A DNA stretch of 64,000 bases from Candidatus Latescibacterota bacterium (GCA_964291625.2 OZ220090.1:896001-960000); one strand, 5' to 3'. Shown: positions 26,337-34,936, counted from the first letter of the stretch. The notes: generated by a model from the sequence alone, not told the origin. Translations and numbers: made by a program.

Positions 26337-27934
26337 GGCGGTTCCGTCCGTCCCCTCAGCAGCTCGAAGAGGCGGTTGCTCCCCTGTGCCTTCCGCAGAT
26401 ACTCCAGCTGCGCCAGTCCGGCCAGGTCGACCCGGCGGCCGGCCAGGTCGATGGGACCGCCGCGGCTGAGGCGGGCCGCTTCGCGATAGCAGTTGGCGGC
26501 GCCGGCGAAGTCGCCGGAGAACTCCGACAGCAGGCCGGCCACGTAGTAGGTGTGGGGGTAGCTGGGATCCAGCCGCGCGGCGGTCAACAGCCCCTGCTCC
26601 GAGTAGGGGGGCTCCCGGCTCCGCAACCGGCTGTAGACCCTCGCCACCGCGGCGACGGCCTCGGGGTGGTGCTCCAGGGAAAAGGAGCCGCGCAGCCGCA
26701 CCCGGCCTTCCAGGAGAATCTCGAAGAGATAGGGCCCCTCGAGCAGGTAGCCAGTGCCTTCAAGCCAGTCCGCGGCGGGCTGGAAGGGAAACGCCACCCC
26801 GTGGTCGGAGAGGTGCAGATCATCCGTACCGACCTCTTCGAGGACCACCCCGTCGGGACCGTAGAGGATCAGCTTCGGACGTCGATCGGCCCAGTCCTGC
26901 CCCGAGGCGGGGTAGCGAAGCTCGATCTGCAGCAGGGCTTCATCCACCGGCCACAGACGGGCCTCGGGGGCCGGCTCTCCGTCGCGCTGCAGGCGCCAGC
27001 CGTCGAAGTGGAGGGGAAACTGGTACCGCCCCCAGGAGGCGGCCACCCCCAGGGTCCTGGTGTCGCCCAGGAAGGGCCGATCCTCCACGACGTACTGGGC
27101 GGTGCCGCGGCCCGAGCCGACCGTCAGACCCAGGCGCCAGCCCGTGCCCACGCCCGAGGTCCGCTCGACGGCACCGCTCAGGCCCAGGTCGAGAGGCCCC
27201 GGCGCCAGAAGCGCGTTGGCACCGAGGGTCCAGCGTCCGCTGCGAGGCTGGTAGCCGAATGACAGGAACGGGCGTCCCCGTACCACGGCGGCGCTCAGAA
27301 CCGGGTTCCAGGAGGCTCCTTCCAAGGTCGACCAGGCATTGCGCACCGTCGCTCCGAGGCGCAGCTCGAAGGCCTTGTCGACGGCCAGGGCCGCCAGTCC
27401 TCCGAGGTCCAGCCCGACGTCGCTCCAGCTCTGGCTGCCGGTATCGACCCGGAGCCAGTGGATCCCCAGGCCGAGCTGGGGCGGGCCTGCATCGCTCCAG
27501 GGCCGCAGCCCCTCAAACGCCTTGCCCGCTGCCATCACGACACGGGCTTCGCCATGGGAACCGTACCCCTCGATGTTCCCCTGGGCGTCCGACCGCAGCA
27601 CGCGGCCGGTGCCCAGGCGGTCCAGGCCGACTCCCGCGCCCCACGAGTTGGTGCTGCGCACGAGACTGACCAGGTCGTGGCCGAGGTCCAGCCCATCGAA
27701 CAACTCGGCGTGGGAAAAGGCCGCGTGGTACCGTCGCTCCAGCCGTGCCAGACCCGCCGGGTTCCAGTAGAGCGCCCCCTGGTCCGCGGCCACCGCCACC
27801 GAGGCCGGCCCCAGCACCGCGGCCCGTCCCCAGGCCGCGGGATGGGCGAAGGCCCCCTCGACCTGGCCCTGGACCCGCTCGGCGCCCGCCAGCAGGAGCG
27901 GCCAGGCCCACGCCAGGCTCCTGGCGCACTTCAT
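26333..27934 (-). CDS. PorV/PorQ (UPF0164)-like outer-membrane beta-barrel with C-terminal TPR-like extension
   Basis: Signal peptide, then GRAAVLGPASVAVAADQGALYWNPAGLA. Amphipathic strands (GLDLGGL, LRLGATVRN). C-terminal LDPSYPHTYYVAGLLSEFSGDFAGAANCYREA. Confidence 0.7.
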   Translation of the reverse strand: MKCARSLAWAWPLLLAGAERVQGQVEGAFAHPAAWGRAAVLGPASVAVAADQGALYWNPAGLARLERRYHAAFSHAELFDGLDLGHDLVSLVRSTNSWGAGVGLDRLGTGRVLRSDAQGNIEGYGSHGEARVVMAAGKAFEGLRPWSDAGPPQLGLGIHWLRVDTGSQSWSDVGLDLGGLAALAVDKAFELRLGATVRNAWSTLEGASWNPVLSAAVVRGRPFLSFGYQPRSGRWTLGANALLAPGPLDLGLSGAVERTSGVGTGWRLGLTVGSGRGTAQYVVEDRPFLGDTRTLGVAASWGRYQFPLHFDGWRLQRDGEPAPEARLWPVDEALLQIELRYPASGQDWADRRPKLILYGPDGVVLEEVGTDDLHLSDHGVAFPFQPAADWLEGTGYLLEGPYLFEILLEGRVRLRGSFSLEHHPEAVAAVARVYSRLRSREPPYSEQGLLTAARLDPSYPHTYYVAGLLSEFSGDFAGAANCYREAARLSRGGPIDLAGRRVDLAGLAQLEYLRKAQGSNRLFELLRGRTEPP

Positions 27935-29825
27935 TCGAACAGTCCCACCAGGTCGTCCCTCCCCAGCATTCCCGCCAGGACGGCCGCCCTGCGGGCATTC
28001 TCCGCGGACAGCCCGCCGCGCCGCGCGATGCGCAACATCTCCGCCCACGCCTCGCCGGCCGTCACCGGCACCAGCACTTCGACCTCGGCGCCGGGATCGA
28101 CCTGCAGACGCTCGACGTAGTCGGCCTGGCCGGGACGCTGGACGTGCAGCGTGTAGGCCCCGGGAAGGAGCGGCGAGAAACGGATGGGAAGACGGTCACC
28201 GAGGCGGTTCTCCTCGGTCGCCTCCTGCAGGAAGAGCCGGGCCCGAAAGGCGACCTCGTCCCCCAGGTCGAGGGTATCGACCTGCGCTCTGACGCGCAGT
28301 CCGGCCGGCTCCTGCTCGAGGGAAACCCGCACCGTGGTCTCGTCGACCACCTCGATGCGTTCGGGGGCGACCGGACAGCCGACCCCGTACCGGGCCGCTC
28401 GCAACTCCAGCTGCCTCAGGTTGGCCCGACCACGGATCAGGCGCTCGTCGAAGACCACGAGGCCCTCCGAGTCCGCCCGGCCCAGCAGGAGGTCCGCGGC
28501 CCACAGGTCGATGCCGGGCCAGGGTACCCCTTGCCCGTCGACCACGGTCACGGCTACGGGCTTGGGCTCGAACACGACCCGCAGATCGTAGACGCCGGGC
28601 CCGGGAGACTCGGCGGCAAGCGGCCCCGCTCGAAGACGAGCCCCAACTGGACGAGGCTGATCCGTTCGAGCTCGTCGGGGGCCAGTCGCTTTCTCACCTG
28701 CACACGTCCCCGGCGGTTCGTGGTGCCGGCCGCCGCGGCGTCGAGCAGGACGTCGACGCCGGGGAAGGGCCGCCCGGAGGTGTCCAGCACCTCGATGGTG
28801 AACAGGTTCTCGGCCGGGCGCAGCAGGACCGACTTGCGGATGCGGCCCGGACGGAGCATCTCCACCACGGGCGAGGTCGGACTGGCTTCGTACCCGGGCC
28901 GCACCACGGCGAAGGTGTGGCGGCCAGGCTCCACGGGGAAGACCCCCGGGGTCACTCCGAGAGTGTCGCCGTCGAGCACGACGATCGAGCCAGGGGGATC
29001 GGAGTCCACCTGGAGGAGGGGCGGCACGATCGAGAATCCGCGCACGGCCTCCTCGTTCCAAAGCCGGGGCTCCCCGCCGGCGGCGTCGGTCACCCGGACC
29101 GCGACCTCCCCGAGGCCGACGTGGCCATCGCCGTCTTCGTCGCGGCCCGTCTCCAGCTCCTGGAGCAGGCGAGCAGTGAACCCGCCGTCCACGGCGCGCC
29201 GGCTGCCGACCTCGACCACGCCGGCGCTCTCCGGAAGGAAGTCCCCCCGATGCGCGCCGGGTGTGAATCCGTCGTACTCCCGGTCGTCGGCGGGCGAATC
29301 GGGGCCGGTGAACCCCTTGCCGCCCTCCCCGCTGTACGAGGCGTCGATGACCGCGCAGGTCCGGGTCGTTCTCAGGCGCTGGAGGAACTGGCCGATCTCG
29401 TCGTCGCGCAGGAAGCTCTCCCCCGTCGCCCCCTGGGCGTCAAAGGGCAGGAGGCACTCGTCGTACTGATCGACCTGCTCGTCGAGAAAGAGATCGTCCT
29501 CGAGGCGGGAACCGCGTCCCGAGAAGTAGAACAGGAACAGATCGTCCCCGCCCACCTGGCTGATGAGCGCCTGAAAGGCCCGATGGATGCCCTCGTAGGT
29601 GGCGGCCGAATCGGTGAGGGCCACGATGCGGTCGAACCCGCCTTCCACGGTCAGGAAGCGCTGCAGGGCGCCGACTTCGGAGACCGGGTGCTGCAGGGTC
29701 GGCACCCCCGAACTCTCGGGATAGGCCGCCACGCCCACCAGCAGGGCCCAGCGTTGGGCGCTCCAGGAGGCTTGACACAGACCCAGGAGCAGGACCGCCA
29801 CAGCCAACCCCGTCCGCCGGCCCAT
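27931..29825 (-). CDS. Exported caspase-like (C14) plus PEGA protein, catalytically substituted, with one frameshift near 28600-28650
   Basis: RWALLVGVAAY, FYFSGRG (H>R), DECLLPFD, VIDASYSG (C>S), PEGA LQVDSDPPGS. Continues in the 27931..29061 frame (GVYDLRVVFEPKP...LLPGAYTLHVQRPG). Confidence 0.75.
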
Positions 29826-34800: not shown

Positions 34801-34936
34801 TCGCCCAGCGCTGGCGGAAGGACAGGTGCTCGTACTGGCCGCTGGCCGCGGCATCGGCCGGCGGCAGGGCCAGGATCAACGTCAGCACGACTGTCAGGCG
34901 GCACCAGGGGCGTCGGAGGGCAGGGCCCTGGCTCAT
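31886..34936 (-). CDS. Transmembrane protein: exported pseudo-caspase plus PEGA, one TM helix, cytoplasmic P-loop ATPase
   Basis: Signal peptide, RWAILVGV, FYYSGRG, IDAGYTG, PEGA, TM GIALAGGVALLIAAGLGYRIRR, SPYITTGPV...FFGREEEI, GGRRIGKTS, FLMDEMD. ATG 34936 has a GGAGA RBS. Confidence 0.85.
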   Translation of the reverse strand: MSQGPALRRPWCRLTVVLTLILALPPADAAASGQYEHLSFRQRWAILVGVGAYGPDSGFQPLERASRDVELVRQALIEGAAFEPGRIRSLVDSAATRASLQALFARLSGQVGEEDLVFFYYSGRGTRTRDDLYPDMEPDRLDECLLLADAIRGQADSYWRDDELGRLLRRLRARYTIVAIDAGYTGDGRADKGVTSPLEATSDAGFLDGITRTDYLPAGAAVLSAGGPAEAIREGVFTVPLADQLREADHVVRLGEVYETLHELGRLRETARPRLQPANRLFRSLPLAGATLAIDSDSLDAQVWIDDRLVDLTTPVEVFLETGPHTLRVSKGEALWETELTVDGANRQEPIRARLKPPPGQRPWSGIALAGGVALLIAAGLGYRIRRQRQVQEDRRRSYPNWARQIEEGLLGVWNDDLEQGTGPHEDGRSVGGFHLEAIPRIHRSYAGRRYVAEHEEFDLGVNGERIVLAPAQRQVLRQFDEHWRQGLDLLNAGSPAALREFAEAAGRGADLLCRTLGFTVDEQVGRREGPFWGTVVHTTSLRGAKIPSPFPLVFLQRPVFEAEDLSHLRTLMESFGLISRFALVVVYLNELEARFTIRTQAQGLGYDFIVLGQTEIRRIAASTDPFRHRVFMRPVLQQVDLIVVSPYITTGPVPDTIFFGREEEIKTIVQTLHTKNIGIVGGRRIGKTSVLQKVYRTFMLPASDYRPFYANYQAVTNYQAFFAHVRNNWGLQVAGEEPERFHQLITQLYEEEEKTIVFLMDEMDALLRFDTHHDELLFKTFRALSEEGKCRFVFSGERILHGQLHDLASPMLNFCDALPLRYLDPPSARRIVIEPMELMDIELVDAEELVGRILGVSSCHPRIIQYLCDRLVRRIAREESRRVTPSHCQSVLDSGEFQAEFIETIWGQGDPLERTVTLVMAETPGGLGLSREGLEEGLRRAGLEVPGAALDTALSNLHMCAILETDRPPYAFTAKAFPDILHRVKNIAEAIEQVKPGTGFARDLAAANGDNLASA

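What the first reader, a model, noticed from the sequence alone, without database searches (positions are those of the whole stretch)
27931..34936. Both caspase-like domains lack the His-Cys dyad in the same way and face the periplasm
Seen: the canonical SGHG is SGRG in both proteins, and the canonical DAC(H/R)SG is DASYSG or DAGYTG. Flanking motifs (RWA.LVGV, DECLL..D, RDDE.G) are retained, and both proteins have signal peptides. The shared H>R change suggests maintained pseudo-enzymes rather than decay. Inference: they act as peptide-binding or dimerisation modules, or as decoys.
Basis: partly seen in the sequence, partly recalled or inferred. Interest (0 to 1): 0.72.

Follow-up and report, generated by a model that had tools for sequence, protein, structure and literature searches.

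The report
Exported arginine-variant pseudo-caspase sensor pair
Two exported caspase-like proteins that have lost both catalytic residues belong to a conserved family of dead caspases that sits in the cell envelope and is wired to ATPases and a gene switch, so they most likely sense or bind something rather than cut protein.

Summary
Both proteins have the caspase fold (Pfam C14; model Z 23 to metacaspase 4), Arg in place of the catalytic His (SGRG), and Ser or Gly in place of the catalytic Cys. Both have signal-peptide-like N-termini. P2 has a second membrane helix, then a cytoplasmic STAND-like ATPase.

His>Arg is not a coincidence of two genes. It marks a clade of caspase-PEGA proteins (27 Arg tips plus one Leu, support 0.79). 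The Cys is kept in some members and lost in others.

The caspase-like domains are under purifying selection (dN/dS 0.14-0.21). The frameshift that splits P1 in the window is an assembly error: contigs from four public runs carry the missing base.

The genes form a five-gene operon: P2, a sigma-54 activator with an AAA_35 N-domain, P1, a PorV/PorQ-like barrel-TPR protein, and a large BNR/Ig protein. A conserved -24/-12 element and a palindrome precede it. Distant relatives keep the P2/AAA_35/P1/barrel core, and two carry TIR domains.

Best reading: non-catalytic envelope sensor modules of an NTPase-centred signalling system. What they bind is unknown. Dead caspases are well known, so this is a new variant of a known kind.

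The parts
31886..34936 (-). P2 (1016 aa): signal peptide, Arg/Gly pseudo-caspase domain, PEGA-like domain, one TM helix, about 270 aa of unassigned cytoplasmic region, then a STAND-like P-loop NTPase. The open frame runs up to 34990, but all homologs start at MSQG (34936).
   Evidence: Pfam Peptidase_C14 32.6 bits, AAA_22 31.3 bits, weaker nSTAND/ATPase_2 hits. Homolog alignment A2. Structure model pLDDT 91.1. Fold match to AtMC4, Z 23.1.
34850..34936 (-). P2 signal-peptide-like N-terminus (MSQGPALRRPWCRLTVVLTLILALPPADA)
   Evidence: Hydrophobicity scan. Conserved in homologs. No dedicated predictor was run.
34562..34573 (-). P2 SGRG: Arg124 at the catalytic His position
34379..34396 (-). P2 DAGYTG: Gly183 at the catalytic Cys position; Asp181 is the retained S1-pocket Asp
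33788..33847 (-). P2 transmembrane helix (aa 364-383), followed by RIRRQRQ on the cytoplasmic side
   Evidence: a second TM is also seen in P2-type relatives
32867..32893 (-). P2 Walker A motif (GGRRIGKTS); Walker B-like VFLMDEMD lies at 32642-32665
29830..31860 (-). Sigma-54 enhancer-binding protein (676 aa from MAPRK). An AAA_35 P-loop domain takes the place of a usual sensor domain. It is followed by the Sigma54_activat domain (with GAYTGA) and a weak HTH_8.
   Evidence: Pfam Sigma54_activat E 3.7e-70, AAA_35 48.9 bits, HTH_8 16.5 bits (below cut-off). NCBIfam EBP models.
27931..29825 (-). P1: signal peptide, Arg/Ser pseudo-caspase, PEGA, Ig-like (CarboxypepD_reg-like) domains and a helical C-terminus. 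The window splits it into two frames by one missing base in a T run at about 28617; the true product is about 632 aa.
   Evidence: Pfam. Homologs of 577-641 aa are continuous. DNA alignment with G002/G006. An extra base in contigs of runs X1-X4. Structure model pLDDT 87.0.
29511..29522 (-). P1 SGRG: Arg104 at the catalytic His position
29328..29345 (-). P1 DASYSG: Ser163 at the catalytic Cys position; Asp161 is the retained S1-pocket Asp
26333..27934 (-). g571 (533 aa from MKCARS): exported protein with a weak PorV/PorQ/UPF0164-like N-terminal part and a TPR-like C-terminus. It is the neighbour most constantly kept beside P1-type genes.
   Evidence: NCBIfam PorV_fam 29 bits and PorV2 35.9 bits, both far below cut-off. 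Pfam UPF0164 E 0.0038. Atlas look-alikes 0.90-0.92. Synteny in 12 metagenome loci.
22653..26336 (-). g1227: exported BNR/sortilin-like repeats, four Ig-like (HYDIN/ASH, choice-of-anchor D) domains and a C-terminal FlgD_ig/PorZ-CTD-like domain
   Evidence: The C-terminal ~90 aa recur at the same operon position in L124 and L125.
35005..35020 (-). Sigma-54-type -24/-12 element (GGGCACGCTTGTTGCT), 69 nt upstream of the P2 start
   Evidence: GGCAC-N5-TTGC is conserved in G002 and G006 although nearby indels differ. rpoN is present in the genome.
35103..35118 (-). Palindrome GTCCAGAAAATCGGAC, a candidate activator-binding site; a 2-mismatch copy lies at 35063-35078
   Evidence: It is one of only two exact copies in the 5.9-Mb genome.
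22334..22349 (-). Second -24/-12-like element (CGGCACAATTCTTGCA), ahead of the DUF4956 gene (21617-22300)
22505..22520 (-). Second exact copy of the palindrome (GTCCGGAGAATCGGAC), upstream of the second -24/-12-like element

Best explanation
P1 and P2 are paralogous members of a distinct clade of exported caspase-fold proteins. In this clade the catalytic His is replaced by Arg, and the catalytic Cys is dispensable. They cannot act as canonical cysteine proteases.

They most likely work as non-catalytic binding or sensor modules in the cell envelope. P2 ties such a module, through one membrane helix, to a cytoplasmic STAND-like ATPase. P1 is a soluble periplasmic copy that travels with a PorV/PorQ-like barrel-TPR protein and a large surface-type protein.

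The signal is probably passed to the AAA_35 domain of the sigma-54 activator encoded between them. That activator would switch on its own operon and the neighbouring DUF4956-HlyD-OEP-VTC-CotH cluster from two -24/-12 promoters that carry the same palindrome.

Shown: loss of the dyad, the fold, conservation of the clade, purifying selection, conserved synteny, and the promoter and palindrome elements. Inferred: the topology, binding rather than catalysis, the direction of signalling, and the regulon. Unknown: the ligand.
For: Fold and homology. Pfam C14 scores are above the cut-off for both proteins. The AF2 models have pLDDT 91.1 and 87.0. The best structural matches of the P2 model are AtMC4 (Z 23.1, rmsd 2.6 over 216 residues) and GSU0716 (Z 22.1).

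Dead dyad. Arg/Ser in P1 and Arg/Gly in P2 occupy the columns where 127 of 176 related domains have His/Cys.

Maintained, not decaying. SGRG is present in 16 of 16 aligned rows. The Arg clade has 28 tips and SH-like support 0.786. Further clade-specific conserved residues are P1 R107, C124, R140 and K170. The two acidic S1-pocket positions are retained. dN/dS is 0.14-0.21 for the P2 domain and 0.15-0.18 for the P1 domain, similar to the ATPase domain at 0.12-0.26.

Extracytoplasmic location. N-termini are signal-like across the clade, and P2-types have a second TM helix.

System context. The five-gene cluster is syntenic in G002, G006 and L120. At 35-40% identity, the order P2-type, AAA_35 gene, P1-type is kept in L121, L124 and L125, with a g571-like gene following in L124 and L125; L121 ends inside its P1-type gene. 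TIR domains appear in L124 and L123. The P1-type plus g571-like pair occurs in 12 loci.

Regulation. The -24/-12 element is conserved in three genomes. The only two exact copies of the palindrome in the genome lie upstream of the two -24/-12 elements. rpoN is present.
Against: No binding partner or ligand was shown. No coordinates of the models were available, so the state of the pocket is unknown.

Signal peptides and topology rest on simple hydrophobicity rules.

The -24/-12 matches alone are not more frequent than chance in the window: 2 found against 0.99 expected, and 27 of 100 shuffles gave at least 2.

Support for the Arg clade is only moderate (0.786). The tree uses the best 150 hits of a profile that was itself built from Arg-variant sequences.

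The link between P2's ATPase and the activator's AAA_35 domain is only adjacency plus a weak Walker-A-region similarity (E 0.002 in a single comparison).

Some clade members keep the Cys (5 of 28 tips; 9 of 38 domain matches in the metagenome loci). A residual chemistry in those relatives cannot be excluded.
Confidence: 0.6

Rival explanations
1. The proteins are structural or adaptor parts of a type-IX-secretion-like outer-membrane complex. P1 would be a catalytically dead counterpart of a clan-CD sortase such as PorU. It would work with the PorV/PorQ-like barrel g571 to hold or present the protein encoded next (g1227 or its equivalents), which carries a shared C-terminal domain. P2 and the activator would merely regulate this.
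For: P1-type plus g571-like is the most constant pair, found in 12 metagenome loci. g571 has weak PorV/PorQ/PorV2 and UPF0164 matches, and its Atlas look-alikes are of that kind. The C-terminal ~90 aa of g1227 match the PorZ C-terminal domain region (E 2.2e-9). They recur at the end of the different protein that follows the barrel gene in L124 and L125. The genome has a type IX system: SprA, 14 PorV_fam matches and 102 TIGR04183 tails. That PorU is a clan-CD peptidase is recalled, not tested.
Against: All PorV/PorZ scores are far below the curated cut-offs (29 against 90, 35.9 against 325, 36.3 against 260). The g1227 tail is not among the 102 TIGR04183 matches. A dead sortase has no precedent that I know of. 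This reading does not explain why P2 carries the same domain on a membrane-tethered NTPase.
Confidence: 0.17
2. The proteins are decoys or dominant-negative regulators of an active caspase-type protease, like cFLIP with caspase-8. P1 and P2 would pair with, or compete with, the genome's intact-dyad exported caspase homolog.
For: The genome encodes one further exported C14 homolog with SGHA and DACASG (P0161, Pfam 28.6 bits). Caspase-fold proteins commonly dimerise (3h11, caspase-8:cFLIP, appears among the fold matches at Z 19.9). Kaur et al. 2020 propose a dominant-negative or peptide-binding role for inactive caspase domains (passages of PMC7159879).
Against: The intact homolog lies on the other contig. 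Weak partial matches like the one to it (E about 1e-8, model positions ~150-255) occur in many relatives that lack P1/P2, though their dyads were not checked. None of the 27 related metagenome loci holds a His-Cys caspase, and where a locus has two caspase genes both are Arg variants. The intact protein is not a close relative (E 1.3e-7 to the clade profile).
Confidence: 0.08
3. The proteins are enzymes with a remodelled active site. The Arg, together with the other clade-specific basic residues and the Ser of P1, would catalyse or bind-and-modify a non-peptide (for example anionic) substrate. In relatives that keep it, the Cys would play this part.
For: The changes are not random. Arg at the His position, a second Arg three residues on, a further Arg, a Lys and a Cys are 94-100% conserved in the clade, against 0-20% in His-Cys neighbours. 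The Cys is kept in part of the clade.
Against: P2 has Gly at the nucleophile position, and other members have Ala. No nucleophile is therefore common to the clade. No chemistry is known for an Arg/Ser or Arg/Gly caspase fold.
Confidence: 0.08
4. The genes are decaying remnants of proteases with no function.
For: Both catalytic residues are lost, and the window shows a frameshift in P1.
Against: The frameshift is absent from contigs of four public runs. One of them matches the window without any other difference over 601 bases. dN/dS is 0.14-0.21. The part of P1 after the break evolves in the window lineage as in the others (0.34-0.42 in all pairs). Motifs are conserved down to 28% identity.
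Confidence: 0.02

Closest known systems
Bacterial pseudo-orthocaspases (Klemencic et al. 2019, PMC6426788; abstract, sections 12, 13 and 17, and passages read)
   Same: Both are C14 p20-type proteins with the His-Cys dyad substituted, conserved as clades, with the two acidic specificity-pocket residues retained. One published variant (cyanobacterial Tyr-Ser) also carries an export-type (TAT-like) N-terminus. Each substitution type goes with its own domain architecture.
   Different: The variants named in the sections I read are YS, YA, FS, QC, HA and YN, mostly from Alphaproteobacteria and Cyanobacteria. An Arg variant, the PEGA fusion, the membrane-tethered NTPase form and the gene context here are not mentioned there. 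The paper's supplementary tables could not be opened and may list Arg variants.
Inactive caspase domains in NTPase-centred conflict systems (Kaur, Burroughs, Iyer, Aravind 2020, PMC7159879; passages read)
   Same: Both involve catalytically inactive caspase domains tied to STAND/AAA+ NTPases, with swappable outputs such as TIR, and with PEGA and other cell-wall-associated domains beyond a TM segment in some systems.
   Different: Those caspase domains are described as effector-position domains of vWA components. Here the dead caspase is the extracytoplasmic head of the NTPase protein itself, plus a free periplasmic paralog, and the output is a sigma-54 activator. NCBIfam's 'caspase, EACC1-associated type' model scores only 48 and 37.6 bits against a cut-off of 140.
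DdvA/DdvS of Myxococcus xanthus (PMC11506125; passages read)
   Same: A single-pass membrane protein carries a large periplasmic caspase-family domain and controls a cytoplasmic transcription factor. It is a precedent for caspase-fold domains acting as envelope sensors.
   Different: DdvA has TPR-CHAT with the His-Cys dyad kept, a cytoplasmic zinc anti-sigma domain and an ECF sigma partner, and autoproteolysis is proposed. Here the fold is C14, the dyad is lost, the cytoplasmic part is a P-loop NTPase, and the partner is a sigma-54 activator.
MALT1 paracaspase (caspase-Ig3) and Arabidopsis metacaspases 4 and 9 (solved structures)
   Same: These are the best structural matches of the P2 ectodomain model: AtMC4 Z 23.1, AtMC9 Z 21.4, MALT1 Z 21.0. 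MALT1 also has an Ig-like domain directly after the caspase domain.
   Different: All of them are active cysteine proteases with His and Cys, and they are cytoplasmic eukaryotic proteins.

Membership tests
Peptidase C14 fold family (caspase/metacaspase/orthocaspase homologs) | Sequence match to the caspase domain above the curated threshold | tested here: met
   PF00656 scores 50.2 bits (P1) and 32.6 bits (P2) against a cut-off of 21.4.
Peptidase C14 fold family (caspase/metacaspase/orthocaspase homologs) | Caspase-hemoglobinase fold | tested here: met
   P2 ectodomain model (pLDDT 91.1) against AtMC4 6w8s: Z 23.1, rmsd 2.6 over 216 residues. Against GSU0716 3bij: Z 22.1.
Active C14 cysteine peptidases | Catalytic His in the S-G-H-G loop | tested here: not met
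   Arg104 in P1 and Arg124 in P2.
Active C14 cysteine peptidases | Catalytic Cys in the D-x-C motif | tested here: not met
   Ser163 in P1 and Gly183 in P2.
Pseudo-orthocaspases as defined by Klemencic et al. 2019 | A p20-type caspase homolog with one or both dyad residues substituted | tested here: met
   Both residues are substituted. The definition was read in section 12 of PMC6426788.
Pseudo-orthocaspases as defined by Klemencic et al. 2019 | Absence of a p10 domain (orthocaspase rather than metacaspase) | tested here: inconclusive
   The model aligns with metacaspase chains over ranges that include their C-terminal part. The paper's p10 criterion was not applied.
Pseudo-orthocaspases as defined by Klemencic et al. 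2019 | One of the named substitution types (YS, YA, FS, QC, HA, YN) | tested here: not met
   The types here are Arg-Ser and Arg-Gly. The types were read in sections 13 and 17. The supplements were not seen.
DdvA-type transmembrane anti-sigma factors | Cytoplasmic zinc anti-sigma domain, periplasmic TPR-CHAT and a cognate ECF sigma | tested here: not met
   Pfam finds none of these in P2 or its neighbours. The cytoplasmic part is a P-loop NTPase and the neighbour is a sigma-54 activator.
EACC1-associated caspases of NTPase conflict systems (NCBIfam NF047832) | Score above the model's cut-off | tested here: not met
   48 bits (P1) and 37.6 bits (P2) against a cut-off of 140.
Type IX secretion attachment-complex parts (PorV/PorQ, PorZ) | g571 scores as PorV/PorQ and g1227 scores as PorZ | tested here: not met
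   PorV_fam 29 bits against 90; PorV2 35.9 against 325; PorZ 36.3 against 260, covering the C-terminal domain only.
Sigma-54 enhancer-binding proteins (the gene between P1 and P2) | Sigma54_activat AAA+ domain with a GAFTGA-type loop | tested here: met
   PF00158 E 3.7e-70. The loop reads GAYTGA in the translation. That this variant is functional is recalled, not tested.
Sigma-54 enhancer-binding proteins (the gene between P1 and P2) | C-terminal Fis-type HTH | tested here: inconclusive
   HTH_8 scores 16.5 bits, below the cut-off of 22.
Named anti-phage defence systems (PADLOC 2.0) | Match of the operon's proteins to the models of a named system | tested here: inconclusive
   Only domain-level hits were found (caspase, RtcR/PspF-type AAA-HTH, and TIR in relatives). 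No system-specific set matched.

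The most novel reading that the evidence does not exclude
This is an undescribed envelope-surveillance system. A free periplasmic Arg-variant pseudo-caspase would be docked to a PorV-like outer-membrane barrel. A membrane-tethered twin would be fused to a STAND NTPase. Together they would read a signal in the cell envelope (a peptide, a secretion substrate tail or an invader-derived molecule). They would relay it through homotypic NTPase contacts to interchangeable outputs: a sigma-54 activator here, and TIR NADase-type effectors in distant relatives. The Arg that replaces the catalytic His would occupy or reshape the retained acidic pocket, turning a protease site into a receptor site.
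Probability: 0.3. Interest if true: 0.75.

Novelty: new variant of a known kind. Interest (0 to 1): 0.5.

Why it matters
Dead caspase homologs make up a sizeable share of bacterial caspase relatives: 858 of 9,994 orthocaspases in PMC6426788. No function has been shown for them in the papers I read.

This clade offers a defined and testable setting:
- a fixed His>Arg change with companion substitutions;
- an extracytoplasmic location;
- a membrane-tethered form fused to an NTPase;
- a free paralog with a constant barrel partner;
- a transcriptional output with recognisable promoter and binding-site candidates.

Relatives put a stand-alone AAA_35 protein, and in two loci a TIR domain, where the window has the sigma-54 activator. 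This links the clade to immunity-type NTPase systems. It suggests that caspase folds were re-used as envelope receptors.

Tried and rejected
Complex prediction of the P2 ectodomain with P1 (caspase plus PEGA parts, each with a 27-row alignment) gave no answer: scores 0.26 and 0.01 against a mark of 0.32, and the controls were not run. It says nothing either way.

The family search of the own genome with PF00656 listed only P1 and P2. This made me think at first that the genome has no intact caspase. The clade profile then found a third, weak match. On direct scanning it passes Pfam's cut-off and has His and Cys, so I dropped the 'no active paralog' argument.

The genome-contig scan with a P2-type alignment returned 80 loci. 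Only the two same-genus genomes carry Arg variants; the other loci are mostly His-Cys caspases from other phyla (77 HC of 122 scored domains) and gave no context information.

The third genomic copy of the palindrome (1 mismatch, contig 1) lies in a coding-dense stretch with no nearby -24/-12 element, so I treated it as chance.

The similarity between P2's NTPase and the activator's AAA_35 domain is limited to the Walker A region (E 0.002). That is too weak to claim a specific relationship.

Earlier notes of this scan hold nothing for this locus or sequence.

No model coordinates are provided, so I could not test whether the Arg sits in the acidic pocket.

Literature searches found no description of an Arg-variant or PEGA-linked exported pseudo-caspase. 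The searches were: 'pseudo-orthocaspase' (11 papers); caspase + 'PEGA domain' (1 paper, unrelated by title); orthocaspase + signal peptide + transmembrane (2 papers); and STAND NTPase/caspase/TIR/periplasmic (37 papers). Most of those papers were seen only as listings.

Full report
WHAT IS THERE

The region 22653-34990 carries five tightly packed genes on the minus strand of a 70% G+C genome. Their order is:
- P2 (31886-34936);
- a sigma-54 activator (29830-31860);
- P1 (27931-29825);
- a 533-aa exported protein, g571 (26333-27934);
- a 1227-aa exported repeat protein, g1227 (22653-26336).

The gaps or overlaps between the genes are a few bases, if the starts used by homologs are taken.

Pfam finds a caspase domain and a PEGA domain in P1 (50.2 and 35 bits). 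P2 has a caspase domain (32.6 bits) and a PEGA match just under the cut-off (19.9 against 20.8). P2 also has AAA_22 and weaker STAND-type NTPase matches in its C-terminal half. The activator has an AAA_35 domain in front of its Sigma54_activat domain. P1 and P2 are 38% identical over 300 residues (E 2e-36).

THE OBSERVATION

All the quoted motifs are present at the stated places. A search of solved structures aligns SGRG with the SGHG of metacaspase-4 and TbMCA2, and DASYSG with the Cys-bearing stretch of TbMCA2. In a profile alignment of the best 150 database relatives, 127 of 176 domains covering at least 75% of the model have His and Cys in these two columns.

- P1 therefore has Arg104 and Ser163 at the two catalytic positions.
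- P2 has Arg124 and Gly183.
- Both Arg codons are CGC, one transition from a His codon.

AF2 models of the two extracytoplasmic parts are confident: pLDDT 91.1 with pTM 0.91, and pLDDT 87.0 with pTM 0.86. The P2 model matches Arabidopsis metacaspase 4 at Z 23.1 (rmsd 2.6 over 216 residues). It matches the bacterial caspase-like protein GSU0716 at Z 22.1, and MALT1 at Z 21.0.

The N-termini look like signal peptides. P2 has one further hydrophobic helix (aa 364-383) followed by a run of basic residues. The domains are therefore predicted to be outside the cytoplasm. This prediction is by rule of thumb; no dedicated predictor was available.

A BROKEN GENE THAT IS NOT BROKEN

In the window, P1 stops after 423 codons and continues in another frame. 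Homologs are continuous proteins of 577-641 residues. Two genomes of the same genus read CGCTTTGCC where the window reads CGCTTGCC.

Contigs of four public runs all carry the extra base behind window position 28617. One of these runs is otherwise identical to the window over the 601 bases laid, and may be its source. The break is therefore an assembly error in a three-base run. P1 should be read as one protein of about 632 residues.

Runs X2-X4, recorded as sponge metagenomes, hold contigs of which part are 95-99% alike and part more distant (in X4, 8 of 20 under 95%). X2 is recorded as a metatranscriptome, but that alone does not show transcription.

MAINTAINED, AND INHERITED

SGRG is present in all 16 rows of the two homolog alignments, down to 28-33% identity.

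A profile of the domain finds 81,206 proteins at E <= 0.001 and 548 at E <= 1e-30. On a tree of 176 domains, 27 of the 28 Arg-variant tips (all but P0007) fall into one clade, together with a single Leu variant. SH-like support is 0.786 for this clade and 0.906 and 0.962 for its two halves.

Within the clade the Cys position is Ser, Gly, Ala or still Cys (5 tips). His>Arg thus probably arose once, and the Cys became dispensable afterwards.

There are caveats. The profile was built from Arg variants, only the best 150 hits were available, and the support is moderate.

The clade has further conserved residues that its His-Cys neighbours lack: a second Arg three residues after the first, the Cys of DEC, the Arg of RDDE and a Lys (P1 R107, C124, R140, K170). 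These are 94-100% conserved in the clade, against 1-20% in the neighbours. The P2 numbers printed are 7 too low. The two acidic residues that line the specificity pocket of metacaspases are kept. This was also reported for other pseudo-orthocaspases (section 17 of PMC6426788).

Nei-Gojobori dN/dS among the three same-genus orthologs:

| Region | dN/dS |
|---|---|
| P2 caspase-like domain | 0.14-0.21 |
| P1 caspase-like domain | 0.15-0.18 |
| P2 NTPase domain | 0.12-0.26 |
| P1 after the false break (window pairs 0.34-0.42; G002-G006 0.42) | 0.34-0.42 |

CONTEXT

The whole five-gene cluster, with the same upstream neighbour, is found in 2 of 9 other genomes of the genus, at 84-92% protein identity. 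It was not found in the other 7, which include a one-contig genome that is 95% complete.

A scan of metagenome contigs for FY[FY]SGRG[TSA]R gave 27 loci, which are Arg variants by construction.

- One locus (L120) has the full cluster at 54-81% identity.
- Three loci at 35-40% identity (L121, L124, L125) keep the order P2-type gene, AAA_35 gene, P1-type gene. A g571-like gene follows in L124 and L125; L121 ends inside its P1-type gene. In these loci the AAA_35 protein stands alone, without a sigma-54 domain.
- In L124 a TIR-domain protein lies between the AAA_35 and P1-type genes.
- L123 has an ATPase-TIR fusion.
- L128 and L132 have nSTAND2 NTPases beside the P1-type gene.

The P1-type plus g571-like pair occurs in 12 loci. 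In the five loci where both caspase-like domains are complete, both carry Arg, and in four of them the same residue at the Cys position (RC+RC three times, RS+RS once, RS+RG once). Three more loci have a second, partial domain that also carries Arg. No His-Cys domain occurs in any of the 27 loci.

Fifteen clade representatives were scanned with Pfam.
- All have the caspase domain, and 14 have PEGA.
- Three continue into NTPase domains.
- Four continue only into Ig-like CarboxypepD_reg/Big_1 domains.
- Three continue into TPR.
- Five have no further assigned domain.

g571 gives only weak PorV/PorQ, PorV2 and UPF0164 matches, and its Atlas look-alikes are of the barrel-plus-TPR kind. g1227 has BNR/sortilin-type repeats, Ig-like domains and a C-terminal domain resembling that of PorZ. 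The same C-terminal ~90 residues end the otherwise different protein that follows the barrel gene in L124 and L125. The genome has a type IX secretion system.

REGULATION

A -24/-12 element (GGGCACGCTTGTTGCT) lies 69 nt upstream of the P2 start. Its GGCAC-N5-TTGC core is conserved in the two related genomes, although the spacer around it has several indels. A second such element precedes the next gene cluster: DUF4956, HlyD-like, OEP, VTC, and CotH with lamin-tail domains.

By count alone these matches are not significant: 2 found against 0.99 expected. However, a 16-base palindrome (GTCC-N8-GGAC) lies upstream of each element. Its only two exact copies in the 5.9-Mb genome are these two, and a reversed-pattern control finds none. 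rpoN is present.

I infer that the activator binds the palindrome and drives both promoters, including that of its own operon. This is not shown.

WHAT IT MOST LIKELY DOES

The proteins cannot be canonical cysteine proteases. Several things point to a non-catalytic binding or sensor role in an NTPase-centred signalling system that spans the envelope (confidence about 0.6):
- conservation of the fold, of the acidic pocket and of a new set of basic residues;
- an extracytoplasmic location;
- fusion of one copy to a membrane-tethered NTPase;
- a further NTPase fused to, or followed by, the output module.

The ligand, the contacts between the parts and the direction of signalling are unknown.

Rivals:
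- a structural or adaptor role with the PorV-like barrel in a secretion-related complex (0.17);
- a decoy for the genome's one intact-dyad exported caspase homolog, which is unlinked; weak matches resembling it occur in relatives without the operon (0.08);
- a remodelled enzyme (0.08);
- decay (0.02).

COMPARISON WITH WHAT IS KNOWN

Pseudo-orthocaspases are well documented: 858 of 9,994 bacterial orthocaspases. The named types are YS, YA, FS, QC, HA and YN, each with its own architecture, and a TAT-like leader occurs on the cyanobacterial YS type (PMC6426788). I read the abstract and sections 12, 13 and 17. Its supplements are closed and may list Arg variants.

Kaur et al. 2020 note that about 70% of the caspase domains in the effector position of one class of NTPase conflict systems are inactive. 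They suggest peptide binding or dominant-negative roles, and they note PEGA and similar domains beyond TM segments (passages of PMC7159879).

DdvA shows that a periplasmic caspase-family domain can head a transmembrane regulator, though it keeps its dyad and works with an ECF sigma (passages of PMC11506125).

PADLOC gives only domain-level hits. Earlier notes of this scan list many exported pseudo-caspases in envelope operons (77 notes hold both words), but none for this sequence.

In four literature searches I found no description of an Arg-variant, PEGA-linked, exported clade, or of its link to AAA_35/STAND NTPases and a sigma-54 activator. Most of the papers were seen only as listings.

VERDICT

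This is a new variant of a known kind, with a well-defined and testable gene context.

Noticed in passing
window 28617 (minus-strand T run in P1): The window lacks one base of a TTT run, which splits P1 into two frames. Two related genomes and contigs of four public runs have the base, so this is an assembly error, not a pseudogene.
   Followed up: yes
window 35005-35020 and 35103-35118; 22334-22349 and 22505-22520 (minus strand): There are two sigma-54-type -24/-12 elements, each preceded by the same 16-base palindrome (GTCC-N8-GGAC). The only two exact copies of the palindrome in the 5.9-Mb genome are these two.
   Followed up: yes
window 15778-22300 (minus strand): Behind the second promoter-like element lies a cluster: DUF4956 membrane protein, HlyD-like adaptor, OEP (TolC-like), VTC-domain protein, and CotH kinase with two lamin-tail domains. 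It may be co-regulated with the pseudo-caspase operon. Its function is unknown.
   Followed up: partly
G000 contig 1, L003:931-3210 (+), protein P0161: A third caspase homolog of the genome (759 aa, Pfam C14 28.6 bits) keeps His and Cys (SGHA, DACASG) and has a signal-like N-terminus. The whole-genome family search with PF00656 did not list it. Weak partial matches like the one that found it occur in many related genomes that lack P1/P2; their dyads were not checked.
   Followed up: partly
L124:9021-9836 and L123:1620-3521: In distant relatives of the cluster, TIR domains are present: a stand-alone TIR protein, and an ATPase-TIR fusion. They occupy the part of the cluster where the window has the sigma-54 activator module, which suggests swappable outputs.
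   Followed up: partly
window 22653-22920 (C-terminus of g1227); L124:16456-16710; L125:20754-20888: The last ~90 residues of g1227 (FlgD_ig / PorZ-C-terminal-like) recur at the end of otherwise unrelated proteins (for example a TIG-repeat protein) at the same operon position in distant relatives.
   Followed up: partly
window 34937-34990: The open frame of P2 extends 18 codons upstream of the start used by all homologs (MSQG at 34936). The -24/-12 element would place the transcript start near 34990, so the shorter form is the likely product.
   Followed up: partly
protein P0013 (database record): This 634-aa homolog of P2 matches up to just past the membrane helix and then turns into low-complexity Arg/Gly/Pro sequence. 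It looks like a frameshifted database record, not a short natural form.
   Followed up: no
window 30580-30600 region (activator, ...GHRKGAYTGAEQD...): The sigma-54-contact loop of the activator reads GAYTGA instead of the usual GAFTGA.
   Followed up: no
record titles of L040 and L041: The two same-genus genomes that share the operon are labelled by their depositors as Gemmatimonadaceae and as Candidatus Latescibacterota. At least one label is therefore doubtful.
   Followed up: no
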